Below are positions 1 to 14,710 of a DNA stretch of 14,710 bases, piece by piece. Positions within the stretch are counted from its first letter, which is position 1; each line of letters begins with the position of its first letter. This DNA is from a virus (taxonomy: Duplodnaviria; Heunggongvirae; Uroviricota; Caudoviricetes), in the IMG/VR virus record IMGVR_UViG_2534682094_000013; one strand, written 5' to 3'. The position numbers were made by a program, and so were the translations under genes. The notes under the pieces are model-generated. The model saw nothing but the letters and a program-made list of their open reading frames with translations. It made no database searches and was not told the DNA's origin.

Positions 1-2
1 GG

Positions 3-410
3 CATGTGAAAAATGAACGCGTTAACCGTTCAGCAAGCTGGCAGTATATCGGTGCAGGTGATGATCGCATCGTTCTTTCTGGTGTGCTTTATCCTGAAAT
101 TACTGGCGGCGAAGTGTCGCTGTCGCTGCTGACCACGCAGGCGTATACCGGACGCCCCTGGCCTCTGATTGATGGCGTCGGGCAGATTTACGGCATGTAT
201 GTCCTGACCGAAACGAGTACGACCCGCTCTGAGTTTGATCGCTACGGTAAGGCGAAAAAGATAGAATTTTCACTAACCCTTGAACGCTGTGATGAGGATT
301 TGCGGGAACGCCTGCAATCCTCATCATTCAGCGATATGCTGTCCGGCTTCAAAGATAAGGTGACATCATCTCTTAACAGCGCGGCCAGTTCAGTTAAAGG
401 GCTGTTCTGA
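3..410 (+). CDS. gpU-like phage tail protein, 5'-partial (frame open to window start)
   Basis: ORF 6..410 translation has P2 gpU-family motifs (VLYPEITGG...GRPWPLIDGVGQIYGMYVL...EFSLTLERCDE). The frame is open from position 3, so the N-terminus lies outside the window. Family assignment is from memory. Confidence 0.6.
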   Translation, partial: HVKNERVNRSASWQYIGAGDDRIVLSGVLYPEITGGEVSLSLLTTQAYTGRPWPLIDGVGQIYGMYVLTETSTTRSEFDRYGKAKKIEFSLTLERCDEDLRERLQSSSFSDMLSGFKDKVTSSLNSAASSVKGLF

Positions 411-419
411 TTAACGCAA

Positions 420-445
420 AACCGCTAATGGTCAGATTAGCGGTT
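420..445. terminator. Hairpin between convergent gpU-like gene and G; possible bidirectional terminator
   Basis: Perfect 10-bp inverted repeat AACCGCTAAT (420-429) / ATTAGCGGTT (436-445) with 6-nt loop. Followed by CTTTCT on the + strand and by TTTTGCGTT on the - strand. Confidence 0.5.
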
Positions 446-531
446 CTTTCTGAAAGTGTTTCTCTGGAGCTGATAAAAACGTATTCCTCCTGAGAAGATT
501 AAAATTTCTTATCAGGGAGCAGGAGAATAGC

Positions 532-942
532 CTACGCCTCCGGCAGTTCAGGCCAGATGACATCCGGTGCGGTGCTGGTATCTGTTGCCGTCACCGCGTC
601 GATATAATCCAGCACAACGTTAAGTCGGGTAGTTTCTTCTTGCGTCAGTTTGCGCCCGGCCTGCAGCTTTAACTGAATCACGCTGATATTGACCATTGCT
701 GCGTCTATCAGCGACTGTTTTTTCTGTTCAGCGTCAGCTACCAGTTCATCATGAGAACGTTCCGGAGTGGGCGGCGCAGTAAATCCCCCGTCTGAATACG
801 CCCAGCCGATTCCGGGCTGCTCACTGATATCAGAAATATTAATGAGCTGTAGATTATCCGGCACAGTGAATTCAGCCTCGCCATCCCAGGCAATTACATT
901 CACAACCATCCCATTTTCAATAACTGCATATGACGCATTCAT
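532..942 (-). CDS. Tail fibre assembly protein (gpG/Tfa-like)
   Basis: Track ORF 532..966. Start is taken at the ATG at 942..940, which overlaps the TAA stop of H (TAATG). Translation MNASYAVIENGMVVNVIAWDG... resembles phage tail fibre assembly proteins and sits immediately downstream of the fibre gene. Confidence 0.8.
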   Translation of the reverse strand: MNASYAVIENGMVVNVIAWDGEAEFTVPDNLQLINISDISEQPGIGWAYSDGGFTAPPTPERSHDELVADAEQKKQSLIDAAMVNISVIQLKLQAGRKLTQEETTRLNVVLDYIDAVTATDTSTAPDVIWPELPEA

Positions 943-2843
943 TATGCAAACTCCTCGATAATACAAATCCCTGCAGCGCCTTTCCCGCCCGTCATACTGG
1001 CTCCGCTATAACCAGCATCGTATGCACCACCACCGCCTGAACCATATGCCTTACCGCTAACACCACCGCCAGCGCCTGCGCGTCCACCGCCGCCCCAGTG
1101 CGATGTTCCGCCTTCACCGCTGACGCTGATATTCCCGGACTGACCGTCGCCTCCATTTCCACCAGTGATGTTGATACCGCCAGTACTTGGCACACCGCCG
1201 TTACCACCGTTCGTGTTTGTGACTCCTACTTTCCCGCCGCCTTCACCGCCAGGGGCTATTACCGTTCCGAACGAGCTATCACCGCCCTTGAGGCCGTTCG
1301 TCGCACCAACACCGCCGCCCCCACCTGCGCCGATAGTGACAGGATAACTATCCTTCGTCAGGATCAGCGTGACAATTGCTGTTCCCCCAGCCCCACCGCC
1401 AGCACCGAAAAACGTTTCGTTATTGGATGTAGCCTGGCAGCCGCCCCCACCGCCACCGCCGCCCGTTATTGTGACCCTGATTCGTTTTGTTCCTGGCGTC
1501 GGGGTGTACGTACCTGATGACGTGAAAATTCGAGTGTTTACAAGGCGTCCAACATATCCGTTTGAATCGCTCAGGCCAAGGTCAGCAGTGGTAGGTTTAA
1601 TATGTGAACTGTAAATTACATAGACCGCTCCATCTGTCAGGCCTGTCGGTTTATTCGCTGTATAAGTTGGTGATGTATGAATCGTTACGCTGGCGTTACT
1701 GGTATAATCCCACTGGATATTTACACCCGTGGCGTAACCACCTATTTCAACATAAACATCATAGGTATCACCGGATGTATTCACCCATGCAAAATTAGTA
1801 AATCCAACCGATGTCCGTCGCCATAACGCACCAGTAAGACCTTTTGGATTCCCATTTCCCGCACGAAGAACAAGTTCAGATATACCAGCCTGCATAGGGG
1901 AGTTAACATTATATCCAGAACCACCAATCAGGCTTATGTAAACTACGGAACTTGCCTGTGGCATGGTTACAGTTGCCAGCTTGAACCATCCTGCACCACC
2001 AATAAAAGACATGGTTGTTGAATTTGTTGCACCAATATTGCGCAGGAATAATCTTTTATCAGGAATATCCGCACCGTTCTGATCTTTCTGAAGACGTTTC
2101 TCAGCATTGTCATAGGCAGACTTCACCGCTTTCGGTGTTGCGGCCAGCGTTTCAGAAGTGCTATTGGTGGCGCTACTGAGCTGGACAAGACCTTTTCGCG
2201 CTGTGGTCGCGTCCTGTGCGGTATATTTCCCGTTAGCAAGGTCATATGCTGTCTTTACCGCCTTTGGCGTTGCCGCAAGCGTTTCAGAATCGCTGTTGGT
2301 TGCGCTGCTTAACTGAGTAAAACCTTTTGCGGTCAGCGATGCATCCGGGTGTCGTCGTGACTGTTCGTGTTCTGAGATTTTGTCATCCACATATTTACGG
2401 GTCGCCAGTACCACCGACGGGTCGATTTTCAGCGTGATGGCTTCGGTATTCGAGACAGCCAGAATCATGCGGATAGTCTGGGTACGACCACTGCCTTCCT
2501 GCAACTGCGGTTTGTACGTTTCCGGGCAATTCGCCACCGCAATGAGTACGCCTTCATCATCATAAAGCCCAATCTCACGGATCCAGAATCCTCCCTCGTT
2601 TTCAGGGATAATTTGTTCCGCAATAATCTGGCTCTGATTGTTAGGGTCAACACTCAGAAGATTCAGCGGTGCAATGCGTTTCTGGTTAATCAGTTTTGTT
2701 TGTGCAGGGTCTGGTGTTGGTAACACACCATTTGCATCACCAACGGCCATTTGCGTCAGATTCAGCTTACTGCCGAGCATCGTCGCGTTAGCCAGTCGTG
2801 CCGCGCCCTGATTAGTCAGAATGGCGTAGTATTTCACTGTCAT
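942..2843 (-). CDS. Tail fibre protein gpH (P2-type N-terminal domain, glycine-rich C-terminal domain)
   Basis: 633-aa intact ORF. The N-terminal third matches P2 gpH as I recall it (GGFWIREIGLYDDEGVLIAVAN, EHEQSRRHPDASLTAKGFTQLSSATNSTSETLAATPKAVK). The C-terminal roughly 200 aa are Gly-rich, including an octa-glycine run. The ATG at 2843 overlaps the stop of I. Confidence 0.9.
   Translation of the reverse strand: MTVKYYAILTNQGAARLANATMLGSKLNLTQMAVGDANGVLPTPDPAQTKLINQKRIAPLNLLSVDPNNQSQIIAEQIIPENEGGFWIREIGLYDDEGVLIAVANCPETYKPQLQEGSGRTQTIRMILAVSNTEAITLKIDPSVVLATRKYVDDKISEHEQSRRHPDASLTAKGFTQLSSATNSDSETLAATPKAVKTAYDLANGKYTAQDATTARKGLVQLSSATNSTSETLAATPKAVKSAYDNAEKRLQKDQNGADIPDKRLFLRNIGATNSTTMSFIGGAGWFKLATVTMPQASSVVYISLIGGSGYNVNSPMQAGISELVLRAGNGNPKGLTGALWRRTSVGFTNFAWVNTSGDTYDVYVEIGGYATGVNIQWDYTSNASVTIHTSPTYTANKPTGLTDGAVYVIYSSHIKPTTADLGLSDSNGYVGRLVNTRIFTSSGTYTPTPGTKRIRVTITGGGGGGGGCQATSNNETFFGAGGGAGGTAIVTLILTKDSYPVTIGAGGGGGVGATNGLKGGDSSFGTVIAPGGEGGGKVGVTNTNGGNGGVPSTGGINITGGNGGDGQSGNISVSGEGGTSHWGGGGRAGAGGGVSGKAYGSGGGGAYDAGYSGASMTGGKGAAGICIIEEFA
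2109..2318 (-). repeat. Tandem 44-codon repeat inside H (two copies of the ...QLSSATNS(D/T)SETLAATPKAVK(T/S)AYD... motif)
   Basis: Protein residues 176-201 and 220-245 are near-identical, and the underlying DNA copies (2241..2318 and 2109..2186) are clearly related. Confidence 0.6.
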
Positions 2844-3403
2844 GCGTTTACTCTCAGATTATCAATTAAATGAATGACCGGGGCAGGGAAATAATCCCCT
2901 TCGACAATAATGGACTCCGGGGTGTAGGGATAAACCGTCAGGGCATCGCCGTGATAGCATCCCGTACCAACGAAAATATTTCCGTTCACACTCAGGCTGA
3001 TCGCCAGCCCTGTCAGATGGCGACTTACTGGTTTTGCATCCGCAATAAGGCGCTCAAGTTCCTGATACATTTCATCTGTGATGCCCTGATCAAGTACTCC
3101 GACAACAATGCGAAATGTTCCCGGCTCCTCGTTGAGTTGCCACCACTCCTTTACTTCAATCAGGTAGCCGAGAGGCTCCACGGCTCTTCGCAGTGCGCTG
3201 ATGGTCCCTTTGTGTCGGTGTATCAGCCATGCATCACGAATAACCTGTCGCTTTGTCTCTTCCGGCCAGTTGCGATCCCAGCGGTCAACGGAAAAGCCCA
3301 GGCGAGATAAGGCAGCAGATGCACCGGGCAGGTGTCCGGCGACCACAGCGTGTTGAGGTCTACCGGAATGTCTGTAATGCGTGTTCCGACGGCTTCGGCA
3401 CAA
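2840..3403 (-). CDS. Baseplate assembly protein gpI (largest frame; true N-terminus in another frame starting near 3447)
   Basis: Translation SVDRWDRNWPEETKRQVIRDAWLIHRHKGTISALRRAVEPLGYLI... matches P2 gpI. The gpI N-terminus (MSNSLLPP...NTLWSPDTCPVHLLPYLAWAF) is in the 3223..3480 ORF frame, so a 1-nt frameshift lies near 3290-3310. Confidence 0.75.
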   Translation of the reverse strand: MCRSRRNTHYRHSGRPQHAVVAGHLPGASAALSRLGFSVDRWDRNWPEETKRQVIRDAWLIHRHKGTISALRRAVEPLGYLIEVKEWWQLNEEPGTFRIVVGVLDQGITDEMYQELERLIADAKPVSRHLTGLAISLSVNGNIFVGTGCYHGDALTVYPYTPESIIVEGDYFPAPVIHLIDNLRVNA

Positions 3404-3439
3404 CGCATGAAATTGCTGGCTGATGGTGGTAACAACGAA

Positions 3440-4331
3440 TTACTCATTGCGTCCACCTTCGCTGATGGTGAATGACTCACAGCGCGCCGCCTGTATGTCG
3501 CTGATGGCCATATTCTGTGTGGGTTCGATTATCTCCACGCGTTGCACACCGTGCACATGCAGTGCGGCAGCAATGGCGGACAACGCCACGTCCTGACCGA
3601 TAAGTCCCTGCTCAGCCAGCCACTTCCTGAACGACGATTCCGCCGCAGCCAGAATAGGTTCGGATTCCGGGCCGGGGTAAAAGTACAGTTTTGCATTCAG
3701 CCGCCATGTCACGATTCTGGCGCTCTGTACGGTCAGGCGGTCGGCCACCGGGCGGGTATCCTCTGCATTCAGAACGGCGCGAACGGTATTAAGCAACGCC
3801 TCCGTTGCTGTGCCGTCGCCCTCAGTGGACAGGATGGAAACCGTCACATTTGCCGGAGACGGGCTGATAGCCCGCGCATCACGCACCAGACCGCTGGCGC
3901 TGCGGGCAAAATACTCGTATGCACCTGACGGGCCAGCAACACTCAGGCCGTCGTACGCCCGTGCGCCCGCAGTCTCAGCGAGGTGTCGCTTCCATCACCG
4001 CGTCGGTGGTATCCGTTGCCGGAGTGATAACCAGGCGCTTTGTGTTCATATTGCCTGCGAGGTTGTCCAGGTCTGTCCCGGCGCTGTGGCTTAACATCAG
4101 GCGCGTGCCCCTCATTACCCGCTGGCGTAACAGCATTTCACGAAACGACATGGTTTGAGCGATAACGTTAAGGGGTTCCGATTCCAGCTCCAGCGCGGCG
4201 GAAACGGCTTCACGCTGTTCGGCGGGATAGGACGCAATCATCATGGCTTTTGTGTCAGCCAGAATTGCTTCAAAGTCAGGCTCCGCGATGATGGCGGGTT
4301 CCGGTAACTGGGAAAGGTCAACGGCGGGCAT
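3440..4331 (-). pseudogene. Baseplate assembly protein gpJ, split by at least two frameshifts
   Basis: N-terminal fragment 3975..4331 (MPAVDLSQLPEPAIIAEPDFEAILAD...) and C-terminal fragment 3440..3886 (...RPVADRLTVQSARIVTWRLNAKLYFYPGPESEPI...) both match P2 gpJ. The middle lies in a third frame, and the 892-nt span is not a multiple of 3. Confidence 0.8.
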
Positions 4332-4399
4332 GATTTACTCCCTCAGCGTGATGGTTAACTCAACATTCTGCATGGTCTGCATGACAGTGCCCGACAGTG

Positions 4400-4684
4400 T
4401 CACCCCGGCGGGCCTCCCGCTTTCCAGACAACGTCGATGGCATCCAGGGCAATGCGGGGTTCCCATCGTGTCAGCGCAATCACGGCAGCACTCATGCATT
4501 GCAGACGCGTGGTGTTATTCATGGGTTCGTCAATCAAATCAGGCACAAGGCTGCCATATTCCCGTCGCATAACCCGGCTGGCCAGCGGGGTGGTCAGGAT
4601 GTCCCTGACTGACTGTTTCAGGTGCTCCATATCATTCAGGTTTCCCGTTCCGTCCGGGTTCATTCCTGTGTAGCGGGTTGTCAC
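4400..4684 (-). CDS. Baseplate protein gpW (gp25-like); C-terminus truncated by a frameshift, true stop at 4335..4337
   Basis: MTTRYTGMNPDG...SVRDILTTPLASRVMRREYGSLVPDLID matches gpW. The ORF ends at the C4 run 4403..4406; adding one C restores ...GVTLSGTVMQTMQNVELTITLRE ending 6 nt before the J start. Confidence 0.75.
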   Translation of the reverse strand: MTTRYTGMNPDGTGNLNDMEHLKQSVRDILTTPLASRVMRREYGSLVPDLIDEPMNNTTRLQCMSAAVIALTRWEPRIALDAIDVVWKAGGPPG

Positions 4685-5277
4685 TGCGGGCCTCCTGTCG
4701 AATCGCTGCCACCTTTAACACCACCGTGTTTATGCGTATGCACTGTGATGCCGTTTGAGGTGAAATCGCCGCCGCTGTGCGTGATATTGCCGCTCATCTT
4801 TCCTCCTTTTGTGACGTCAAGCGTCGCTGTTCTCAGAAGGTTTGTGCATTCCACGACGGGCGTGTCCAGTGTCACGCTGACGGATGCCTGTAAAGTGGCC
4901 GTTTTCATGCCGCTGGCGCTCAGTGCGCCTGCGTCCGCGTCGTAGCGGAACACCGCGCCATCCGGCGCGCTGATCACGATTTCTTTCAGGCTTTTGCCGG
5001 GGGCCGGACTGGCATCACTCCACAGGCTGCCAATTATCATGGCGGTTTCCGGGTTGCCGCCAATGCAGGCAATTACCACCTGTTCGCCTGGTGATGGCGG
5101 CAGCCACACATTGAAGGCTCCCGCGCGCGTGGTGTTCCAGCGCAACCAGCCTGTTTCCAGTTCGCCGCTGCGAACGCGCACGCACCAGGATTCCTCATCA
5201 ACTTCAGAGATGATCCCGGTCGGATGATGTTGCTCAGCAGTCGCATGAGTTCTGCGCTCACCGTACAGCCTCCGCAA
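4681..5277 (-). CDS. Baseplate spike gpV; N-terminus appears frameshifted (probable true start GTG at 5261)
   Basis: C-terminal 170 aa match gpV (...GNITHSGGDFTSNGITVHTHKHGG). The gpV-like N-terminus (MSAELMRLLSNII...) is in the 5073..5261 frame and joins the main frame near 5215. Confidence 0.75.
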   Translation of the reverse strand: MRRLYGERRTHATAEQHHPTGIISEVDEESWCVRVRSGELETGWLRWNTTRAGAFNVWLPPSPGEQVVIACIGGNPETAMIIGSLWSDASPAPGKSLKEIVISAPDGAVFRYDADAGALSASGMKTATLQASVSVTLDTPVVECTNLLRTATLDVTKGGKMSGNITHSGGDFTSNGITVHTHKHGGVKGGSDSTGGPQ

Positions 5278-5887
5278 TCCGGCCCAGCACCGTGTTATAA
5301 ATCAGGCGCTCATCTGCCTGGCTGATACCCAACAGCTCACGTACCGGGTAATCGGTGAAAATGCCCGGCGCAACCTGATCGCGCTCACCGAACTGATGAA
5401 CGCGGCAATACGTGCGGCCACGCCGCTGTAACCCACCGTCACACCGGAAGCATCTGCACGGGCTTTCAGGTAGCGGGCGGTGCGCAGTTTTACGAACATG
5501 GGGACGCGCTTTGTGCTGTCCTGGTTGATGCGCCGGGTGCGTATTTCCAGAAAACGGTCGATGTCATCCCGGTAAAACGTGCGGATATTGTTTTTATCCT
5601 CATCCCACCCGGTAATGGTTCGCCCGTATTTCCCCGTGTCGTGATGCCAGTTTTTCAGCGTGCGTGCTTCGTTATTCCAGATAAAGCGAATGCGTCCTGT
5701 ATCCGGGTTACGCGGCGTCTGCGTGGTGTCCAGCGTCCCGTCCGGCGCTTTCTGTGACCGGATACGGCCTGCTGGGCGCGGCGTAAATCCTGTGCCAGCT
5801 TTCTGGCGATGTTATTGATGGCCTGCTGATTCAGGCTGTCGCGGATGCCTCAAAGGTTTCATCCACGCGGGTGAATGCCTTATCCAT
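5258..5887 (-). pseudogene. Tail completion / virion morphogenesis protein gpS-like, multiple frameshifts
   Basis: ATG at 5887 overlaps the R stop (ATGGATAA). By hand translation, gpS-like segments (MDKAFTRVDETF / ...IRDSLNQQAINNIARKLAQDLRRAQQ / ...MFVKLRTARYLKARADASGVTVGYSG... / ...LIYNTVLGRIAEAVR*) lie in different frames. No intact ORF covers the span. Confidence 0.65.
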
Positions 5888-6342
5888 CGCTTTCACCCCA
5901 CGTCACATCCTGGAATACATGCGACCAGTCGCCTTCGGAAGAGGCAGGCGGGGTTTTGGCTCGGCAGGTGTTCTGCCTGCGGTGTGCCCTGACTGCTGCG
6001 CTGATGCGAACGCGTTCCCGCAGGGGGAGCGTAAACAGGAGATCGGCGCTGTCATCGTCATTGATAACGGCGGAGAATTTGATGTCCTGATTACGCTCGG
6101 TTGAGCAACAACTGTGGCTGATTTTCGGATAACCACGCCAGCAGCGGCAGCGTGAGGTCGTCCAGCTCCCCGGCGTAATCCATGACAAACATCACCATCT
6201 GATAGCGGTAAACAAACGAGGGCGTTTCTCCGGTCGTTTCAATGTTGCCGCTCTCCACGAAAATGGTGAATTTTTCCGGGTTAGCCTGACACCATCGGCA
6301 TGAACGGGTCATGGCTTCACGCAGGGAATCAGTTTTCAGCAT
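5880..6342 (-). pseudogene. Tail completion protein gpR, one frameshift
   Basis: N-terminal fragment 6091..6342 (MLKTDSLREAMTRS...LPLLAWLSENQPQLLL) matches gpR. It continues in the 5880..6188 frame (ERNQDIKFSAVINDDDSADLLFTLPLRE...) after a 1-nt deletion near 6105-6112. Confidence 0.75.
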
Positions 6343-6619
6343 GGTTGTTGTCCTCGTTGTTCAGTCGTTGCAGCCTGCGCTGTTCCAGTAATTCAATGGC
6401 CCGTTTATCAGCGTTACAGGTTTCCAGTGCATCCAGAAGGCGGTCGCCCCATATACCGAGATTTCCCCATGTGGGAGTGTCAGGGAAGGGGGGAGGCGTT
6501 ACCGGTATGGTCAGCGTCTGCGGTATAAGCCGGACTGACGGCGCTGGCAGTGGCGCGTTCTGCGTGCCTGCGCAACCTGTCAGTAAAACGAGCGTCAGGC
6601 AAAGCGTGGGCGCATTCAT
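6329..6619 (-). CDS. lysC: Outer-membrane spanin lipoprotein (LysC / Rz1-like)
   Basis: Start taken at the ATG at 6619. Signal peptide with lipobox (LLTGC), Pro-rich mature region. Begins embedded out of frame in lysB and extends past its end. Confidence 0.7.
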   Translation of the reverse strand: MNAPTLCLTLVLLTGCAGTQNAPLPAPSVRLIPQTLTIPVTPPPFPDTPTWGNLGIWGDRLLDALETCNADKRAIELLEQRRLQRLNNEDNNHAEN

Positions 6620-6887
6620 CTTTTGCAATATCGTTGCGTAGCTGTTCACGTCTGGCCTCTCCGTCCTGATTTCTCTGTTGATTTTCCACGCGGAGTTGCG
6701 CCAGCACCTGCTGCATATCCTGTACCCCGGTGCTGATGATATTCAGGGTGTCGACGGTACTTTTCAGGGCGCTGGCCTGCGCTTCGTTTCTGGCGTTCTC
6801 CCGGCCCAGCGACCACGACAGACGCATGGATGTTCCCCATGCGGCAATCAGAAGGAAAGCGACACCCAGCGTGGGCCAGAGCTTCAT
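6480..6887 (-). CDS. lysB: Inner-membrane spanin (LysB / Rz-like)
   Basis: Start taken at the ATG at 6887 (MKLWPTLGVAFLLIAAWG...), giving an N-terminal TMD followed by a charged, probably coiled-coil region. The track ORF extends upstream to 7031 into the endolysin gene. Confidence 0.7.
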   Translation of the reverse strand: MKLWPTLGVAFLLIAAWGTSMRLSWSLGRENARNEAQASALKSTVDTLNIISTGVQDMQQVLAQLRVENQQRNQDGEARREQLRNDIAKDECAHALPDARFTDRLRRHAERATASAVSPAYTADADHTGNASPLP

Positions 6888-7276
6888 GCCGGATAGGCTC
6901 CGTGTGGTAACTGAAAATGCGGTCCGTCTTTCAGGGTCTTCCAGTCGCCGCCCCATTCCACCGGAATATTCAGTTCCCGGCTGGCCTGTCTGAATGCTGC
7001 TGCGATTTTTTCGTACAGCGGCCATTCCCATGACACCTGGCTGCCGATATAAGCCACAACATCCACGGCATGTCCCGTAAGGTGGCGGCTGTTCATGGTC
7101 TGGCTCTTACCCGTGGCCACAAGTTGCTTCTGGCGGTAACGACTGCGCAACCCTTCGGTGATACCAAAATCCACTTCCGAAATTTCCAGTGCCCGTCGGG
7201 TCACTTTCACCAGATCAGGATTTACGCCCTGCAAATTCTTTTCGCTCCGGCTGCTGAATTTAAATGTGTTGCTCAT
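6884..7276 (-). CDS. Endolysin, peptidase M15-like (L-alanyl-D-glutamate peptidase type)
   Basis: 130-aa intact ORF with SRHLTGHAVDVV and a distal His, as in M15 endolysins. Sits between holin and spanins; start overlaps holin stop. Confidence 0.65.
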   Translation of the reverse strand: MSNTFKFSSRSEKNLQGVNPDLVKVTRRALEISEVDFGITEGLRSRYRQKQLVATGKSQTMNSRHLTGHAVDVVAYIGSQVSWEWPLYEKIAAAFRQASRELNIPVEWGGDWKTLKDGPHFQLPHGAYPA

Positions 7277-7491
7277 TCGTCCTTCTCCTTCACCCTGCGA
7301 TTAAAGGCTGCAATAACCTTGTCGCGTGCTTTCTCTGCGCCCATAAAACCGATTGATGCGCCGATAAACGTCACGGCATCTTCAGGAAAACCGAAGAAGC
7401 GCAACGACCCGGCCACGGCCATGGCAAGAACGCCGCACGCCAGCGATCCCGTTACGGTCTGAACCAGTGTTCGTCCGTCATAAAGACTCAT
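7273..7491 (-). CDS. Holin (class II-like, two TMDs)
   Basis: 72 aa with two hydrophobic segments (TVTGSLACGVLAMAVAGSL, AVTFIGASIGFMGA) and a charged C-terminus (EKARDKVIAAFNRRVKEKDE), immediately upstream of the endolysin. Confidence 0.6.
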   Translation of the reverse strand: MSLYDGRTLVQTVTGSLACGVLAMAVAGSLRFFGFPEDAVTFIGASIGFMGAEKARDKVIAAFNRRVKEKDE

Positions 7492-7595
7492 CAGCGCGGA
7501 AATGCTGACCGCCGCGCCTCTGCATACACCGTTGGCAGGTGGTCAAAGAGCCACGCAATAACCTGCTCTGTGATCCCTGTTTGAATGGTGCTCAC
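7491..7595 (-). CDS. Hypothetical 34-aa ORF between X and holin (GTG start, GGAG RBS); possible holin partner or detached holin N-terminus
   Basis: GTG at 7595 lies 6 nt downstream of GGAG. Its TGA stop overlaps the holin ATG (TGATG). Not in the supplied ORF track (under 60 aa). Confidence 0.3.
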   Translation of the reverse strand: MSTIQTGITEQVIAWLFDHLPTVYAEARRSAFPR

Positions 7596-7597
7596 TG

Positions 7598-7798
7598 CTA
7601 CTCCCCCCACAACTGAATCATTTCTCGTTTCTTCTTCTCCGGCTCCGGCATCTCCACTTCCTGCCCGGCGTCCAGAAATACCTGCTGACAGAGTCCGGGG
7701 TTGGCATCCAGCACCTTTTCGGTGACGCCCTGCGTCGTGCCGTAGTACCGGAAACAGAGCGAATCCACGGTGTCGCCTTCCAGTGCCTTCACTTTCAT
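7598..7798 (-). CDS. Tail protein X (gpX, LysM-like)
   Basis: MKVKALEGDTVDSLCFRYYGTTQGVTEKVLDANPGL matches P2 gpX. The track starts at GTG 7804; the ATG at 7798 fits the P2 N-terminus better. Confidence 0.75.
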   Translation of the reverse strand: MKVKALEGDTVDSLCFRYYGTTQGVTEKVLDANPGLCQQVFLDAGQEVEMPEPEKKKREMIQLWGE

Positions 7799-7836
7799 CA
7801 GCACAACTCCGCAAAATTCGCGGGCGGCACAGAATG

Positions 7837-8287
7837 TCAGAGATGGCCCAGCTCACATCCGCCACAAATCCGATGTCTGTATATCCAGGCGTCCGCCCGG
7901 CGGTCGCCCTTGTCCGTTGTGTCTGCATCACGATAACGCTCCAGAATCAGGGCGCGCGTGGCGGTATAAACAGCATTGCGCCAGTGCCAGAGATTGACGC
8001 TTTCTCCGTTAATTACGGGTGCCGGAACATCGGCCAGCGTCTGATGGCCAGCGCCTGCTGTTCCTGCTGCCAGCTTCCAGCTCGCGGGTAACGTGTGCCA
8101 CGCCCCGGTGGCTATGCAGCAGGCGGGAGGTGGTCACCGCCCGGCAGTCGTACCGCCAGACGCAGTCCGCAGCACAATATCCGGCCAGAATGCACCCGCT
8201 GAAATCGGGTATCCCATCATCGGTATCGGTGATGTCGTCCTCTGCGGGTCCGGGGTTGGTTCTGGCAACCATACTCATGGGGTTCAC
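7837..8287 (-). pseudogene. Head completion protein gpL-like, frameshifted
   Basis: The position between M and X, and a Cys-containing N-terminal fragment (8009..8287: ...DFSGCILAGYCAADCVWRYDC...), suggest gpL. A second frame (...LWHWRNAVYTATRALILERYRDADTTDKGD...ICGGCELGHL*) ends at 7837. The exact junction is unresolved. Confidence 0.5.
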
Positions 8288-8372
8288 TCCTGAAAAAATC
8301 GGGCGGTGGGTGCGCGGTGTAAACGGTCACGGAGTCAAACCGGAACACCGCGCACGCCGCCCGCTGACGGGG

Positions 8373-9153
8373 TCAGTCGTTAACCGCGCTTCGCCTTCTG
8401 CGTCGCGGTGGTTTTTCGTGTTGCAGGCTTCCGCGTTGTCTTTTTACTTTTGCTGCTTTCGTCCTGCGCCTGCTGTGCGCTGGCGTCTTCTGGTCGGCTG
8501 CGGAATCGGCTTTTTTCAGGGCGCGGGAAAGGGTTGCAATCTCGCGTTTCACACCTGCGTTCGGGTTCAGGTGCATGCTTCGCGCAGCAGCTTCAGTGAA
8601 GGCCATGTGTCGCATCTCAGCCACGCGGGCAAAGGCGCACGCTTGCATAATTTGGCGCGACTTCGTCCGGCATGTCCTGGTCGGTGACAATCTCCGGAGG
8701 GTGTCCAGGGTTCGATAAAGGCGGAAAATCCGCGTCGGCATCCGCCCGGCCTGCGTCAGTACCGGTTCAGATTTCTTCGGTCAGACGTGGCAGCAGTACG
8801 GCCAAAGTTATCCGGCATATGAGGTTTGACGGACCACATACGCCCATACGCACGCAGCGGAAGATCGCCCAGTCAATCGCCCACACCATCAGCGTGGCAA
8901 TCACTTCATCCTGCTGCCCGCCGTCAGCCTCCAGCGTTCCCTCAATCCAGCCGGAAAAATCCGGCAACAACTCTTTTTTGATGGCGGCTTTCGCGCTTCT
9001 GGCCTGTACGCCCTTAAGCCGGGCCTGTGCCAGACGCAGACGATACAGCACCTCTTCATGCGCGGTACGCGCGGCGTGGTCCACGCCTTCATTCGCCCGG
9101 CCTGCGCGCTGTGCCATCACGTTCTGCCAGTGTTGCTGTGCAGGAGTAATCAT
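8373..9153 (-). pseudogene. Terminase small (endonuclease) subunit gpM, at least two frameshifts
   Basis: N-terminal fragment 8767..9153 (MITPAQQHWQNVMAQRAG...KKELLPDFSGWIEG...) and C-terminal fragment in 8373..8741 (...HLNPNAGVKREIATLSRALKK... with a basic tail) both match P2 gpM. The middle lies in another frame. Confidence 0.8.
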
Positions 9154-9170
9154 TTGTTCTCTCCGTTACA

Positions 9171-9189
9171 GGCGGGCATGATGCCCGCC
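9171..9189. other. GC-rich hairpin in the N-M intergenic spacer
   Basis: GGCGGGCA-TGA-TGCCCGCC: 8-bp perfect stem with 3-nt loop, between the capsid gene stop (9216) and M start (9153). No U-tract on the transcribed strand. Confidence 0.35.
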
Positions 9190-9215
9190 GTGAGTTGATT
9201 AGCTGTCGGCGAACT

Positions 9216-10250
9216 TCAGACCAGTGACCATGCGCACTTGCCATAGTCTTCAACGACATAAGCGTCATTGATGGACTGGTAGGTGGCGATGCGGTTGTAT
9301 TCCGGCTCGTCTTTCATCAGGCGACGCATTGAGCCTCTCTGCCAGTAAATTGACAGGTTGTTGAATGAGGTGATCAGCATCGTTGCATCCGGGAAGAACG
9401 GCGCAAGGAATACATCCAGCCCGCCAATGGTGCGCGATGACAGGATGAGCTGTCCGGCGAGTAATTCCGCATTGGGATTCTGGCCGCTGATGCTGTTCAG
9501 CACGGGCAGGCGTAGCGAGTTAAACAGGTTGCGCCCCATAATCACCACGAGGTCGTCAGCTTCCTTGTGCCATTCATCCAGCAGGGATGAGCGTGCGTCC
9601 TGTACCAGTGCATCAGCGTTCGCATACTTACCCGCGTGCGCCACGGTGTTGTCCATGTTGCGGGAGGTCAGCGTCACGTCATTCATAACGCGCTCGCTGG
9701 CGTCGGTTCTGATGTGCTCCAGCCAGCCCACGTTAACGTCCTGAAGCAGCTTGTTGGTGCTGAAGTTGGACTCATCCGCGTGAGACGTGCCGTTGAAACC
9801 GATCATGATGCGGTCAAGCGCCACCTGTCGGGCAATCTGTGCGCTGATGCGGGACTGAAAATCAGGGTGTGCCGACCAGGCATCAAGCTTCGGATACGAA
9901 ATAAACGTGTCGTAGTTCACCTGTTCGCACTGGTATTTGCGGTTTTTCAGATCAACCACGTTATTCGGGTTACGGCGTTTTGTGCCGTCATAACTGGTAT
10001 TCGTGCGTGCAATTGGCCCGGTGGTGTCCAGGAGGATTTTTTCGCCTTTCTGGTCGGTCACGCCGATCACGTTAATTCTTTTTGTAAATTCGGTACTTTC
10101 CTTTGAGGCGTTTTCAAAACGCTGCTGTACCGAGGGTTCCACGGTAAATCGCGATACCAGTGCAGATACCGGGATATTGTTAAGCGACGCCTGCTGCGCC
10201 ATATAGCAACCCAGCTTGTTGCGGGTAATATCTGACATCACCAGATTCAT
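9216..10250 (-). CDS. Major capsid protein gpN
   Basis: Intact ORF with strong P2 gpN similarity throughout (FTVEPSV...QKGEKI...NRKYQCEQVNYD...LQDVNVGWL...DDLVVIMGR...MLITSFNNLSIYWQ...YVVEDY). Start is taken at ATG 10250 (AAGGAG 8 nt upstream), not the track's 10304. Confidence 0.9.
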   Translation of the reverse strand: MNLVMSDITRNKLGCYMAQQASLNNIPVSALVSRFTVEPSVQQRFENASKESTEFTKRINVIGVTDQKGEKILLDTTGPIARTNTSYDGTKRRNPNNVVDLKNRKYQCEQVNYDTFISYPKLDAWSAHPDFQSRISAQIARQVALDRIMIGFNGTSHADESNFSTNKLLQDVNVGWLEHIRTDASERVMNDVTLTSRNMDNTVAHAGKYANADALVQDARSSLLDEWHKEADDLVVIMGRNLFNSLRLPVLNSISGQNPNAELLAGQLILSSRTIGGLDVFLAPFFPDATMLITSFNNLSIYWQRGSMRRLMKDEPEYNRIATYQSINDAYVVEDYGKCAWSLV

Positions 10251-10272
10251 AAAAATTTGCTCCTTTGTCTTA

Positions 10273-11047
10273 TCAGAAGTCAGCCAGCTGGTCGGAGGCT
10301 GCACCTGTTGCGGTGAACCGGTTCTGCGGATCGCCGTCCTGCGTGCGCAGTTTTTCCTTCAGTGCTGTCAGCTCTGTGGTCAGTGACGTGATTTTCTGGC
10401 GGTCCTGCTGATGGCGGGTTTCCAGCACATTAAAACGGTCGATAATGTCGGCCTGTGACGTTGCGACCCTTCCACGCTTCCTGAATACGGGAGAAACTGG
10501 CGTCATCCGCTTTGCGGCCACGACCAATAATCCCCATACGCGGTTAAACCACTGGGTGCCTTCTTCCTGCGTTGTTCGATTCGATATTCGACTCATGCCG
10601 GAACGCTCCCCTGACGTTGAAGTCATAGCTACGTTGTGTGCCGAAACAGCGTCGTGCCCAGGCTGCGGGGTGTCGGTCATGCCAGCCCGCAGTAGGCCCC
10701 CGTAGGACTGGGTCAGTCATACTGGAATAGATTTTCTTGCCGTCCGCGACAAGCTGCTTCATGCGCTCGGTCGGTTCGATTTCTGCATACAGCGCAGTAC
10801 GTCCGGCCAGCGGACCTTCCGTAATGTCTTCCGTACTCAGTGCGGTGACATCGCCCATTGCGGAAAATTCGCTTGACGGGCATGGCGAGAGATAGTGCTC
10901 AACGTTCACGCGGGCAGCGTAAACATCCGGGTTGAAGTTCTCGGCGGCTTCACGCAGATGTACCGGGCTGATTTCGCGGCCATCAACAGTTGATCCGGAG
11001 ACAGCCACGCGAAACTTTTTGCGGGATGTCTTTTTTTCATTAGCCAT
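10273..11047 (-). pseudogene. Capsid scaffold protein gpO, frameshifted
   Basis: N-terminal fragment in 10544..11080 (MANEKKTSRKKFRVAVSGSTVDGREISPVHLREAAENFNPDVYAARVNVEHY...) and C-terminal fragment in 10273..10680 (...LTTELTALKEKLRTQDGDPQNRF...) match gpO. The centre is out of frame, and the 775-nt span is not a multiple of 3. Confidence 0.8.
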
Positions 11048-11201
11048 AGTTTTTGCCCCTCTGACTGGTTCTTCAGTCATGATGGCAAAGCGTAACAGGC
11101 TGACACAAAGGGCTTTTGTTGTAAGAAAACGGCCAGAACAGGGGGTTAAGGAGAACAGTTTCGCGCGCGGGTAATCTTCCTGTAATTACTCAGGGGGAGC
11201 A
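11048..11201. promoter_or_regulatory. Divergent intergenic region between O (-) and P (+); expected site of the two late promoters
   Basis: 154-bp gap between divergently oriented operons. Contains an imperfect dyad ACAAAGGGCTTTTGT (about 11104..11119) and a strong SD (GGGGGAG) before the P start. In P2 both late promoters here depend on Ogr; no consensus match is claimed. Confidence 0.4.
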
Positions 11202-12940
11202 ATGATTCAGGACGCTTTTGTGCGCCAGCGTGCGCGGCAACTTTACTGGCAGGGTTATCCGCCCGCAGAAATATCACGTCTGATGGGAATAAACCCGAAC
11301 ACGATTTATGCGTGGAAAAAACGCGACCAGTGGGATGAAACGCCACCCGTGCAGCGTGTCACGCAGTCCATCGATGCGCGCCTCATCCAGCTCACTGAAA
11401 AACAGAATAAAACAGGTGGTGACTTCAAGGAAATAGACCTGCTGACCCGGCAGCTTAAAAAACTGCATGATGGCCAGCCGGATGTGATGGCCGCAGGAAA
11501 GAAAGGCCGGGCGAAAAAACTTAAAAATCATTTCACGCCGGAACAGATTGCCGCACTGCGGGAAAAAATCATCAGCAGGCTGGAGTGGCATCAGCGGGGC
11601 TGGTTTGACTCCCTGACACTTTGCAGGGAAGCCGGGATACGTAACAGGATGATCCTGAAATCCCGACAGATTGGGGCGACCTGGTATTTTGCACAGGAAG
11701 CCTGCTGATGGCGCTGCGTGACGATGTGGCGCAACCTTACCAGCGTAACCAGATTTTTTTGTCTGCGTCGCGTCGTCAGGCGTTCCAGTTTAAAAGCATT
11801 ATTCAGAAGGCCGCGGCTGAAGTTGATGTGGAGCTGAAAGGGGGCGATAAAATCATCCTCTCCAACGGCGCAGAGCTGCATTTTCTCGGCACTTCTGCTG
11901 CGTCGGCACAGTCCTATACGGGCAATTTTTATTTTGATGAATTTTTCTGGGTCAGTCGCTTTGCCGAACTGCGCAAGGTGGCTGGCGCTATGGCAACCCT
12001 CAGCGGACTGCGGCGCACCTACTTCTCCACGCCATCCACCGAAACGCACGAGGCTACGCCTACTGGAACGGCGACCGCTGGAACGAGAAAAAGGCCCGCA
12101 TAAACGCCAGCGTTTTTCTGTGGACTGGAAAACGCTGCATAACGGGCTTATCTGCCCTGACCGGACTGGCGGCAAATTGTCACGCTGGAAGATGTGGTTA
12201 ACACGGCTGGAAACACACCAATATCGACGAAATTCGTGATGAAAACACCGAAGACGAGTTCCTCAATCTCTATATGTGTGAGTTTGTCCGCGAAGGGGAA
12301 TCGGCATTTAACCTGAATATCCTGATTGGCTGCGGTGTTGACGGATACGACGACTGGAAAGACTGGAAACCTTTTGCTCCCCGCCCATGGGGAATCGTCC
12401 GGTATGGATTGGGTATGACGCAAACGGCAGCAGTGGCAACGGCGACAGCGGCGCTGTGTCCGTGGTGGTTCCTCCGGCTGTTCCTGGTGGCCGTTTTCGA
12501 ACGGTGGAACGCGACGCGTTCAGGGGCTGGAGTTTGAAGAACAGGCCAGAGTCATTGAAGAGTTCACGTGTCGCTACAACGTGGAACACATCGGCATTGA
12601 TGTGACGGGCGGGAACGGGGAGGCTGTTTATCAGATAGTGAACGTTTTTCCCTGCGCTATTCCGTACACCTTCACGCTGTCATCAAACGGTCGCTGGTAC
12701 TGAAAATGCTGCAAATAATGCGTGCCGGCGTGGGAATACGATCGCGCCGAACGCGAGCTGGTCGCGGCCTTTAACGCCGTGCGTAAGGTGAAAACACCGG
12801 GCGGCTTTATCACTTACGAAACGGACCGCGCGAGGGGGATCAGCCACGGCGACCTTGCGTGGGCAACCATGCTTGCTGTCATTAACGAACCAATTGGCGG
12901 CGAAGGAGAAAACGAGCGTTTCACGGTTATGGAGTTCTGA
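11202..12940 (+). pseudogene. Terminase ATPase (large) subunit gpP, at least five frameshifts
   Basis: Fragments 11202..11708, 11708..12103, 12274..12537, 12387..12605 and 12722..12940 each match consecutive parts of P2 gpP (QLYWQGYPPAEI..., NQIFLSASRRQAFQFK...GNFYFDEFFWV..., MCEFVREGESAFNLNILIGCGVDGYDDWKDWKPFAPRP, GNRPVWIGYDANGSSGNGDS..., ...SHGDLAWATMLAVINEP...). The 1739-nt span is not a multiple of 3. Confidence 0.85.
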
Positions 12941-13983
12941 TGAGCAGAAAAAATAAAAAAGTGCGCATGAGTTCACGCATTGATCTCGCTGATGCGCTCA
13001 GGAAAGAATCGTCGCTCAGTGCATTCACATTTGATGGCCTTATCGCCTGACCGGGCATGACCTGCTGGATAATATGTACTGTGCTGATAACGGGCGGTGG
13101 TATGAAACCCCGGTGGACTGGTACGGTCTGGCAAGAGCTGCCCGGCAAACGTCCTGGCATCAGTCTGCGCTTTACTTTAAGCGCAATGTATTGCTCGGTT
13201 GCTACATCCCGCACCCGCTGCTTTCCCGGCAGGATTTCTCGGCGTGGCGCTGGACTGGTTTGTGTTCGGTAACGCATTCCTTGAGCTTCGGAGCAATATG
13301 CTCGGCGAACCACTTAAATTACGGCACGCACTGGCGAAATACATGCGACGCGGAAGCGATCTTGAATCATGGTGGTATGTGCAGGATGGCAAGGACGCGT
13401 TTCAGTTTCGCCCTGGCAAAGTGTGCCACCTGATGAATCCGGACATTAACCAGGAAATTTACGGCATGCCGGAATATCTTGGCGCATTACTCTCGGCCAG
13501 CCTGTCTCATTCGGCGGACATGTTCAGAAAACTGTATTACGACAATGGATCCCACGCCGGGTGCATCATCTACATCGGTGCAGCGCAGGTAAACCGCGAA
13601 AGCATGGACTCCCTGAAAGAAACGTTACAGGGTGCGCGTGGTGGTGGGCGTTTAAAAACGTGCTCATCCATGCGCCCAACGGGGGCAAAGAGGGGGTGCA
13701 AATTTTGCCGTTCCAGCAGATCACCGCAAAGGATGAGTTCATGAATGTTAAGGCGGCATCCCGTGATGATGTGCTGGCTGCGCACCGCGTTCCGCCGCAA
13801 CTGATGGGGGCGATGCCGGGCGAAAAAAGTGCGTTTGGTGATGTGGAGAAGGCCGCGCGGGTTTACGCAATTAACGAGCTGATGCCCGTCATGGAGGCCA
13901 TGAAGCACATCAATGACTGGCTTGGCGAAGAGGTGATCCGCTTTAACCCTTACGCACTGTTAGACACCCAGCCCACATCCTGA
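12940..13983 (+). pseudogene. Portal protein gpQ, at least three frameshifts
   Basis: ATG at 12940 overlaps the P stop (ATGA). gpQ-like segments lie in frames 12940..13048 (MSRKNKKVRMSS...), 13074..13433 (...NGRWYETPVDWYGLA...YFKRNVLLGCYIPHPLLSRQDFS), 13199..13744 (...DWFVFGNAFLE...NPDINQEIYGMPEYL...YYDNGSHAG...) and 13561..13983 (...KNVLIHAPNGGKEGVQILPF...AAHRVPPQLMG...). Confidence 0.85.
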
Positions 13984-14009
13984 CGCGCTTCGCTTGTCTG
14001 CTGCTTCGC

Positions 14010-14034
14010 CGGGGCATAAAAAATTTATGCCCCG
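14010..14034. other. Perfect hairpin just downstream of the portal gene (possible terminator or protein-binding element)
   Basis: CGGGGCATAAA-AAA-TTTATGCCCCG: 11-bp perfect stem, 27 nt after the Q stop. No flanking T-tract on either strand. Confidence 0.4.
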
Positions 14035-14407
14035 ACTCTCCAGCTCCTGTATCAGTCAGATAATTTCACGACGCTTTCCTGCTTATTGCCATCATCGACA
14101 GTCAGACTCTTACGCAATCCCACCGCGTTGACTGCATGTTCTCGCCGTCTCAGTGCGATTTTGACGGCCTTACCTTTCACCCCATCAAATCAAAAGCCCT
14201 CACGTCTTTTTCACGCTCAGCGTGAGAAATATAGCCATTCTGTTGTGTCGCTGCGACATCGTTCAGGGGATGCTATTTACCCCCTGAAACGCGGGCTGTT
14301 CCCCCGTCACCTGCGCGCAGAAAAAACGCGTTTTTTTGTGCACGCACGGATCCTTGACGGATCCAGCCGCCATGCGGGCCGGAAGGGCAAAAAGTCGTTC
14401 AAAAAAA

Positions 14408-14434
14408 TTGTGCAAATTTGTGCACTATTGTGCA
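14408..14434. repeat. Three direct TTGTGCA repeats phased at exactly 10 bp
   Basis: TTGTGCA at 14408, 14418 and 14428 (aTTGTGCAaat TTGTGCActa TTGTGCAaac), at the point where composition switches to AT-rich. Confidence 0.5.
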
Positions 14435-14557
14435 AACCGAACGGAGTGTTTATTTATAGAAAAATTGAGCCTATGTATACGACGTTGCTTATAAATACAT
14501 CCCTGACTGTTATGTGAAAATATGCAAAGAAAATTACATGCTATGGAGATGAGAGTT

Positions 14558-14597
14558 ATAACGACCTTTTCTACTTATTTGTAAAAGAGGTCGTTAT
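14558..14597 (+). promoter_or_regulatory. Hairpin that would sequester the SD and start codon of the downstream small ORF
   Basis: 5' arm ATAACGACCTTTT (14558..14570) pairs with 3' arm AAGAGGTCGTTAT (14585..14597): 13 bp with one G-U pair, 14-nt loop. The 3' arm contains AAGAGG and the AT of the ATG at 14596. Confidence 0.4.
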
Positions 14598-14691
14598 GTA
14601 TAAAGTTAAATTATTTTTTACTCTTGATATGTGTAAAAAATATAGCTTTGATGTTTATATTTTATTAGAATACATTATTTATCCTCTTTAA
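14596..14691 (+). CDS. Hypothetical 31-aa peptide (MYKVKLFFTLDMCKKYSFDVYILLEYIIYPL)
   Basis: ATG preceded by AAGAGG at 6-nt spacing; 31 codons to TAA at 14689..14691, in the AT-rich terminal segment. Not in the supplied track (under 60 aa). Could be a chance ORF. Confidence 0.3.
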   Translation: MYKVKLFFTLDMCKKYSFDVYILLEYIIYPL

Positions 14692-14710
14692 TGATTTTGT
14701 TATAGTCAAA

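What the first reader, a model, noticed from the sequence alone, without database searches (positions are those of the whole stretch)
2840..13983. Single-base frameshifts in thirteen of the late genes; the junctions traced are 1-nt deletions, mostly at short G/C runs
I, J, W, V, S, R, L, M, O, P and Q each have homologous protein segments in two to six reading frames, with no in-frame nonsense codons in the segments I followed. The five junctions I reconstructed by hand are all single-base losses: C4 at 4403..4406 in W, CC at 5848..5849 in S, GG at 13246..13247 and GGG at 13646..13648 in Q, and one near 6105..6112 in R. An indel-only pattern concentrated at homopolymers is what uncorrected long-read or flow-based assemblies produce, whereas natural decay usually adds nonsense mutations and larger deletions too. 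The other reading is a genuinely inactivated cryptic prophage. The two imply opposite conclusions about function.
Basis: partly seen in the sequence, partly recalled or inferred. Interest (0 to 1): 0.6.

Follow-up and report, generated by a model that had tools for sequence, protein, structure and literature searches.

The report
Assembly artefact: two prophages merged
The frameshifts that riddle this P2-like prophage are not gene decay or homopolymer read errors: the assembler merged reads from two slightly different prophage versions and dropped nearly every base at which they differ, so the sequence says nothing about whether the phage works.

Summary
The window is the whole 14,710-bp contig AQAR01000289.1 (GCA_000358395.2). 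It carries the late genes of a P88-like (P2-family) prophage.

Against five intact relatives it lacks about 142 bases in 118 events, with no insertions.

They are not at homopolymers; the run lengths of deleted bases match background (p = 0.15). They cluster strongly, and 58 of 67 unambiguous single-base losses fall on third codon positions (p = 2.5e-19).

Sister assemblies of the same ETEC ST423 lineage carry two alternative alleles at those same sites (86 of 113 events; odds ratio 80). In the densest patch, the window's 178 bases are an exact common subsequence of both 237-base alleles.

The tail-fibre segment, 1–3294, has no deletions.

The sister assemblies were made from Illumina HiSeq reads with Celera Assembler, not from long or flow-based reads.

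Verdict: this is a consensus artefact from collapsing two related prophage alleles. Natural decay is rejected. It is not a biological feature, and interest is low.

The parts
1..3294 (.). Clean segment that only one prophage copy has: the 3' part of gpU (6–410, +), tail-fibre assembly gene G (532–966, −), tail-fibre gene H (942–2843, −, 633 aa, intact) and the start of I.
   Evidence: There are no deletions against nine sister contigs. L013 and L014 show 0 mismatches over 3.3 kb. The H ORF is intact. No complete E. coli genome has this H gene above 95.8% identity.
2840..3447 (-). Gene I (baseplate). One base is lost at 3295, a third codon position where the reference has C and the sisters have T.
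3440..4331 (-). Gene J (baseplate). Five single-base losses at 3961, 3989, 4097, 4107 and 4116.
4335..4684 (-). Gene W. One base is lost at 4410, where the reference has C and the sisters have T. Sister L006 has the same gap.
4681..5246 (-). Gene V (spike). One base is lost at 5220.
5258..5887 (-). Gene S. Six single-base losses between 5404 and 5846. At 5846 the two alleles are G and A.
5880..6342 (-). Gene R. Four events remove five bases between 5942 and 6098. The '2-nt' loss at 6098 is two variant sites, CTC[A/C]GG[G/A]TTG.
6329..7276 (-). Genes lysC, lysB (DUF2570) and endolysin K (M15). No deletions.
7273..7595 (-). Holin gene Y. One base is lost at 7519.
7798..8278 (-). Gene L (head completion). 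Thirteen events, with a dense patch at 8052–8213. Sisters L006, L009 and L010 share gaps at identical positions.
8292..8292 (.). Intergenic A7→A6 length variant. It is natural, not part of the artefact.
   Evidence: The same state is found in intact phage P88 (L001) and in CH4793 (L002).
8380..9153 (-). Gene M (small terminase). Twenty-five events, with a dense patch at 8576–8869.
   Evidence: In one search, the 386 window bases are an exact subsequence of both the 412-nt A-type (L004) and B-type (L005, L006) alleles.
9199..10250 (-). Gene N (major capsid). One base is lost at 9231, near the 3' end. Elsewhere the consensus follows a single allele. The A6→A5 change at 10250 is a natural intergenic variant.
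10273..11047 (-). Gene O (scaffold). Forty-two events remove 62 bases. The densest patch is at 10467–10718.
   Evidence: In some searches, the window patch of 178 nt is an exact subsequence of allele A (L009) and of allele B (L005). Each allele is 237 nt and they are 78% identical.
11202..12940 (+). Gene P (large terminase). Thirteen single-base losses, with a cluster at 12642–12729.
12940..13983 (+). Gene Q (portal). Three single-base losses at 13037, 13244 and 13647.
13984..14710 (.). Segment beyond Q, towards the variable gene slot of the prophage. It has no deletions. About the last 36 nt overlap the 3' end of an AAA-family ATPase gene in the closest complete genomes.

Best explanation
The deletions are a consensus artefact of the deposited draft assembly.

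The read set held two versions of the P88-like late-gene block. Most likely these are two related prophages resident in the same ETEC ST423 genome, about 97–99% identical overall with short mosaic patches of about 78% identity.

The overlap-layout-consensus assembler placed reads of both versions in one pile-up. At a column where the versions differ, neither base won, and the column was emitted as a gap. The result is a sequence holding only the bases the two alleles share, that is, one base lost at each variant site.

Variant sites between functional alleles are mostly synonymous third codon positions. The losses therefore fall there, cluster where the alleles diverge most, and frameshift 13 genes.

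Shown here: the coincidence of losses with two-allele sites, the codon-position bias, the common-subsequence property, the clean unique segment, and the platform and assembler used for the sister records.

Inferred: that the second allele is a second resident prophage rather than a contaminant, and the exact way the consensus step turns a split column into a gap.
For: 1; the window is the entire contig AQAR01000289.1. Nine other assemblies carry the same prophage with an identical 633-aa H protein, but their late genes are broken at different places.
2; 58 of 67 unambiguous single-base losses are at third codon positions (p = 2.5e-19). The same holds in sisters L009 (19 of 21) and L010 (21 of 25).
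3; at the deleted positions the sisters carry two alternative bases. This applies to 86 of 113 events (odds ratio 80, Fisher p = 2e-94). A further 18 events lie at sites that are polymorphic in sisters or in public prophages.
4; in the O patch the window's 178 nt is an exact subsequence of both allele A (L009) and allele B (L005). Random deletion of the same number of bases from A gives an LCS with B of 148 ± 2.5, with a maximum of 157. One search gives the same result for the M and L patches, and for the S/R patch against sisters L006 and L010 (one base unexplained against the public references).
5; allele B occurs at ≥99% identity in 236 complete E. coli genomes (100% in the records listed), annotated as an intact scaffold gene. 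Both alleles are therefore natural and functional.
6; the dense patches contain no private substitutions and no insertions. There are zero deletions in the 3.3-kb tail-fibre segment.
7; contigs of seven assemblies end within about 40 nt of each other inside gpU, as expected at a repeat boundary.
8. L011, from a different and later assembly, has only one length difference over V–W–J–I, and its genes are intact.
9; sisters APWY, AQEG, AQEF and AQAM are ST423 CS17 ETEC isolates sequenced with Illumina HiSeq 2000 and assembled with Celera Assembler. records that column-by-column consensus in that assembler is known to mishandle allelic variation.
Against: - No reads were examined, so read depth and allele fractions are not known.
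- The AQAR record itself was not found in any text I could read. Its platform and assembler are inferred from its accession block (AQAI–AQAS, which includes AQAM = P0304777_2) and from the shared artefact.
- About 12 of the 118 events have no second allele in my small sample.
- I found no published statement that Celera's consensus emits gaps at split columns.
- No complete genome of this lineage was available to show the two prophages side by side.
Confidence: 0.9

Rival explanations
1. Platform error. Uncorrected long-read or flow-based reads miscall homopolymer lengths and leave random single-base indels in the consensus.
For: The differences are indels only, with no nonsense changes and no large deletions. 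Two losses do lie in A6 and A7 runs.
Against: - The run-length distribution of deleted bases equals background (p = 0.15).
- 87% of unambiguous losses are at third codon positions.
- Identical gap positions recur in independent assemblies.
- The dense patches have no insertions and no extra substitutions.
- The two poly-A changes are natural variants also seen in intact phage P88.
- The sister records are Illumina plus Celera Assembler.
Confidence: 0.03
2. Genuine decay. The prophage is a cryptic remnant that has accumulated more than 100 small deletions in the cell.
For: Bacterial pseudogenes are biased towards deletion. Related prophages can carry real lesions, for example a terminase gene with an internal stop in strain MS20654.
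Against: - A mutational process cannot know codon position or the sequence of another allele.
- There are no nonsense mutations, no insertion sequences and no large deletions.
- The damaged patches contain no private substitutions.
- Isolates of the same lineage show different and partly overlapping gap sets.
- About 25% of bases are lost in one 140-nt stretch whose flanks match intact relatives apart from ordinary allelic differences.
Confidence: 0.02
3. The same consensus artefact, but the second allele comes from a mixed culture or cross-sample contamination rather than from a second resident prophage.
For: I could not show two copies in one closed genome. The isolates were sequenced in one batch at one centre.
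Against: Both alleles show up in at least five assemblies, and the four I could identify are four separately named isolates, 178200, 180600, 199900_1 and P0304777_2. Contigs break at the same repeat boundary in seven assemblies. Many E. coli genomes carry two or more prophages of this type, up to seven places per genome.
Confidence: 0.06

Closest known systems
Escherichia phage P88 and P88-like prophages (Peduoviridae, Xuanwuvirus), for example in E. coli O55:H7 CB9615
   Same: The gene order is the same: U | G H I J W V S R lysC lysB K Y X L M N O | P Q. Once the gaps are set aside, the region is about 98–99% identical, with 165–167 mismatches in 11,600 aligned bases.
   Different: The window lacks about 142 bases in 118 places. 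Its tail-fibre H and G genes are a different allele.
Collapsed-repeat or mixed-haplotype consensus errors in overlap-layout-consensus assemblies (column-by-column consensus in Celera Assembler)
   Same: The consensus matches neither underlying allele. Errors are confined to the repeated or shared block. Contigs break at repeat boundaries.
   Different: Here the error takes one unusually pure form, a gap at nearly every variant column in some patches. I did not find that outcome described in the papers I read.
Homopolymer indel errors of 454, Ion Torrent or nanopore assemblies
   Same: Single-base indels create false frameshifts in otherwise intact genes.
   Different: There is no homopolymer preference, there are no insertions, the losses are biased to third codon positions, and they depend on allelic differences.

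Membership tests
P2-family (P88-like) prophage late region | Collinear late-gene order and high nucleotide identity to P88-like prophages | tested here: met
   The best phage records cover 80–86% of the window at 96.3–96.5% identity (P88 itself 81% at 96.5%). The I–Q block is covered 100% at 97.1–97.4% by the best of over 1,000 E. coli prophages. Gene order matches the annotation.
Homopolymer sequencing-error artefact | Indels enriched in homopolymer runs | tested here: not met
   65% of single-base losses are at run length 1, against 55% of all bases. Chi-square p = 0.15.
Homopolymer sequencing-error artefact | Errors independent of codon position and not reproducible between independent assemblies | tested here: not met
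   58 of 67 losses are at third codon positions. Gaps at identical positions are shared by L006, L009 and L010.
Homopolymer sequencing-error artefact | Long-read or flow-based platform | tested here: inconclusive
   The sister records are Illumina HiSeq plus Celera Assembler. The AQAR record's own metadata could not be read.
Naturally decayed cryptic prophage | A mixed spectrum of lesions: nonsense changes, larger deletions, insertion sequences, and excess substitutions in dead genes | tested here: not met
   The losses are 1–6 nt only. There are no nonsense changes once gaps are filled and no private substitutions in the damaged patches.
Naturally decayed cryptic prophage | The same lesions inherited by clonal relatives | tested here: not met
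   ST423 sister assemblies have different, partly overlapping gap sets. L005 has only 12 and L011 only 1.
Collapsed two-allele consensus artefact | Lesions sit at sites where two co-occurring alleles differ | tested here: met
   86 of 113 events lie at two-allele sites, with odds ratio 80 and p = 2e-94.
Collapsed two-allele consensus artefact | The consensus is a common subsequence of both alleles | tested here: met
   In the O patch all 178 window bases fit both alleles, against 148 ± 2.5 in the random control. All 386 bases of the M patch and all 221 of the L patch fit both allele types. All 441 of the S/R patch fit sisters L006 and L010, and 440 fit the public references.
Collapsed two-allele consensus artefact | Segments present in only one copy are clean | tested here: met
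   There are 0 deletions in 1–3294.
Collapsed two-allele consensus artefact | Doubled read depth and bi-allelic pile-ups over the collapsed block | not testable with these tools
   No reads are available here. The sister runs are SRR446286, SRR446717, SRR446718 and SRR447007.

The most novel reading that the evidence does not exclude
The sequence could be real. Recombination between two resident prophages would form heteroduplex DNA, and an unknown repair route would remove the mismatched base at each difference. That would leave a true 'intersection' allele, arising independently in each isolate.
Probability: 0.01. Interest if true: 0.8.

Novelty: not a real feature. Interest (0 to 1): 0.1.

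Why it matters
The evidence points to two probably intact prophages hidden behind one corrupted consensus.

In practice, this record and at least four sister ETEC ST423 records carry false frameshifts in prophage genes. These would be miscounted as pseudogenes or as a 'defective prophage'.

The signature found here is a cheap way to recognise collapsed near-identical repeats without reads. It consists of deletions only, no homopolymer bias, a strong bias to third codon positions, and a clean unique flank.

Tried and rejected
- Exact search for a 74-nt stretch of the most damaged patch found nothing in GTDB species-representative genomes or in IMG/VR. The pattern itself was verified in the window.
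- Searching papers for the WGS and assembly accessions found nothing in main texts.
- Table S1 of the mBio 2015 study (PMC4462620) is not held. The AQAR isolate name and its metadata therefore remain unverified.
- I looked for a complete genome of the same lineage to show the two prophages side by side. The best match to the H-gene segment was only 95.8% identical.
- I looked for a published description of gaps being called at split columns. I found only general statements on DAG consensus and on column-by-column consensus.
- I considered a programmed frameshift. The known one in P2-like phages lies in the E/E' tail-chaperone gene upstream of T, outside this window, and it could not account for 118 events.
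- I considered error bursts from low-coverage long reads. I rejected this because of the codon-position bias and the dependence on allelic differences.
Full report
**What the window is**

The whole window matches P2-family prophages of the P88 type (Xuanwuvirus). The best phage records cover 80–86% of it at about 96.4% identity. The I–Q block is fully covered, at 97.1–97.4% identity, by the best of more than 1,000 prophages in complete E. coli genomes.

Gene order follows the annotated relatives. On the plus strand there is the 3' part of gpU. On the minus strand come G, H, I, J, W, V, S, R, lysC, lysB, K, Y, X, L, M, N and O. P and Q are on the plus strand.

An exact look-up of the intact 633-aa tail-fibre protein showed that the window is the complete 14,710-bp contig AQAR01000289.1 of assembly GCA_000358395.2. 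Nine other assemblies carry the same prophage with an identical H protein.

**Checking the observation**

I aligned the window base by base to three intact E. coli prophages and to phage P88.
- There are 117–118 places where the window is shorter, 140–142 bases in all, and no place where it is longer than the three E. coli prophages. Against phage P88 there is a single 1-nt insertion.
- About 103 of the events remove one base, about 11 remove two bases, and a few remove three to six.
- A fifth intact reference gives the same picture.

Thirteen genes are hit. Events per gene are I 1, J 5, W 1, V 1, S 6, R 4, Y 1, L 13, M 25, N 1, O 42, P 13 and Q 3. H, G, lysC, lysB, K and X are untouched.

When the missing bases are filled in, no gene has a nonsense change, apart from one stop in the badly aligned O patch.

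The stated context is wrong:
- 67 of 103 single-base losses hit a base with no identical neighbour.
- The run-length distribution of deleted bases equals that of all bases in the region (p = 0.15).
- All four bases are lost about equally.
- At the five junctions traced by hand, the lost base lies beside the named G/C run, or its loss creates that run. The base is not part of the run itself.

**Three properties that no read-error or decay process explains**

1. The losses cluster strongly. The variance-to-mean ratio per 100 nt is 6.1, and 77 of 117 bins are empty.
   - Dense patches lie at 5694–6098, 8052–8213, 8576–8869, 10467–10718 and 12642–12729.
   - In 10577–10718 about a quarter of the bases are missing. 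The flanks differ from intact relatives only at ordinary allelic sites, and the patches contain essentially no private substitutions.
2. Of the 67 single-base losses whose position is unambiguous, 58 fall on the third codon position of the intact gene (p = 2.5e-19).
3. The first 3,294 bases, which hold this prophage's own tail-fibre genes, have no losses at all.

**The sister assemblies explain this**

Against the same reference, the sisters have their own gap sets: 12 in L005, 26 in L006, 38 in L009, 42 in L010 and 1 in L011. Some gaps fall at exactly the window's positions and some elsewhere.

Where one assembly has a gap, the others show two different bases.
- Of 113 window events in the region the sisters cover, 86 lie at a site with two alleles among the sisters (odds ratio 80, Fisher p = 2e-94).
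- Across all 118 events, 18 more lie at sites that are polymorphic in sisters or in public prophages.
- Two, at 8292 and 10250, are natural intergenic poly-A length variants shared with intact phage P88.
- About 12 have no second allele in my small sample.

The densest patch gives the clearest test. L009 carries allele A and L005 carries allele B. Each is 237 nt and they are 78% identical.
- The window's 178 nt is an exact subsequence of both.
- Deleting the same number of bases from A at random gives a longest common subsequence with B of 148 ± 2.5, and never more than 157 in 1,000 trials.
- The M and L patches behave the same way. The S/R patch fits sisters L006 and L010 exactly and leaves one base unexplained against the public references.
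- Allele B occurs at ≥99% identity in 236 complete E. coli genomes (100% in the records listed), annotated as an intact scaffold gene, so both alleles are natural and functional.

At the 237 two-allele sites, the window has one allele at 107, the other at 52 and a gap at 78. These states come in runs.

**Mechanism**

The contig is the consensus of a pile-up that mixed two versions of the late-gene block. In some stretches the consensus dropped every column at which the versions disagree.

Differences between two functional alleles are mostly synonymous. This explains the third-position bias. Deletion density tracks local divergence between the alleles. The segment that only one version has is clean.

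Contigs of seven assemblies end within about 40 nt of each other inside gpU, which is typical of a repeat boundary.

Four sister records are listed in Table S1 of Sahl et al. 2017 (PMC5469772). APWY is isolate 178200, AQEG is 180600, AQEF is 199900_1 and AQAM is P0304777_2. All are ST423, CS17 ETEC from Bangladesh.
- They were sequenced as 100-bp Illumina HiSeq 2000 reads and assembled with Celera Assembler.
- A companion study reports the same methods and more than 200× coverage (PMC4462620).
- Levy et al. 2007 (PMC1964779) record that this assembler's column-by-column consensus needed special handling for allelic variation.

Two points remain inference. The first is the exact step that turns a split column into a gap. 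It may be that a mismatch is represented as a pair of gapped columns, each of which loses the vote. The second is that the AQAR record shares these methods. It sits in the same accession block and shows the same artefact, but I could not read its metadata.

**Two resident prophages or contamination?**

Both alleles appear in at least five assemblies, and the four I could identify come from four separately named isolates. Many E. coli genomes hold several prophages of this type. I therefore favour two resident copies. Only read depth or a closed genome can settle this.

**Rivals**

- Homopolymer or long-read error fails on context, codon position, reproducibility between assemblies and platform.
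- Natural decay fails because a mutational process cannot track codon position or another allele's sequence. It also fails because no other type of lesion is present, and because relatives in the same lineage differ in their gap sets.
- A real 'intersection' allele made by some unknown heteroduplex repair is not strictly excluded without reads. It has no known mechanism and would have to arise independently in each isolate.

**Comparison with what is known, and verdict**

The underlying element is an ordinary P88-like prophage. The frameshift pattern belongs to the known class of collapsed-repeat or mixed-haplotype consensus errors, in an unusually pure form.

It is not a biological feature. 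The data suggest two probably intact prophages behind it.

Interest is low. The practical value is a warning about these public records, and a read-free signature for spotting such collapses: deletions only, no homopolymer bias, third-codon-position bias, and a clean unique flank.

Noticed in passing
L005, L006, L009, L010 (public records AQEG01000113, AQAI01000034, AQAM01000002, APWY01000433): The same gap-at-variant-site artefact affects the sister ETEC ST423 assemblies. It extends into tail genes outside this window: sheath and gpD are split in L005 and L008. Prophage pseudogene counts from these records would be inflated.
   Followed up: partly
window 1–32 and the ends of L006, L009, L010, L012, L013, L014: Contigs of seven independent assemblies stop within about 40 nt of each other inside gpU, at about codons 28–37 of a 162-aa gene. 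This marks where the unique tail-fibre segment meets sequence shared with a second copy.
   Followed up: partly
window 942–2843 (−): The tail-fibre H allele has a glycine-rich C-terminal domain (Pfam Gly_rich_2). It has no match above 95.8% identity in 5,426 complete E. coli genomes but is identical in ten draft assemblies. It appears to be a lineage-specific receptor-binding variant.
   Followed up: no
window 14438–14710: Similarity to most P88-like prophages stops at about 14437. The tail of the contig matches only 24 complete genomes and runs into the 3' end of an AAA-family ATPase gene, which is followed by a DNA adenine methylase. This is the variable slot beside Q, where P2 carries old and tin, so the pair is a possible defence cargo.
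   Followed up: partly
window 8292 and 10250: These are two intergenic poly-A length differences (A7/A6 and A6/A5). They are the only losses at long homopolymers, and they are natural variants also present in intact phage P88 and in strain CH4793.
   Followed up: yes
L015 12807–14558 (E. coli MS20654, NZ_CP082083.1): In this closed genome the large-terminase gene of the related prophage is annotated as a pseudogene with an internal stop. It shows what real decay looks like in this phage group.
   Followed up: no
NZ_CP182198.1 (E. coli EC130) 1935275–1941874: Matches to the window's tail-fibre segment and to its far end lie only about 3 kb apart in this genome, against 11 kb in the window. This suggests a prophage remnant that has lost most of its late genes.
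   Followed up: no
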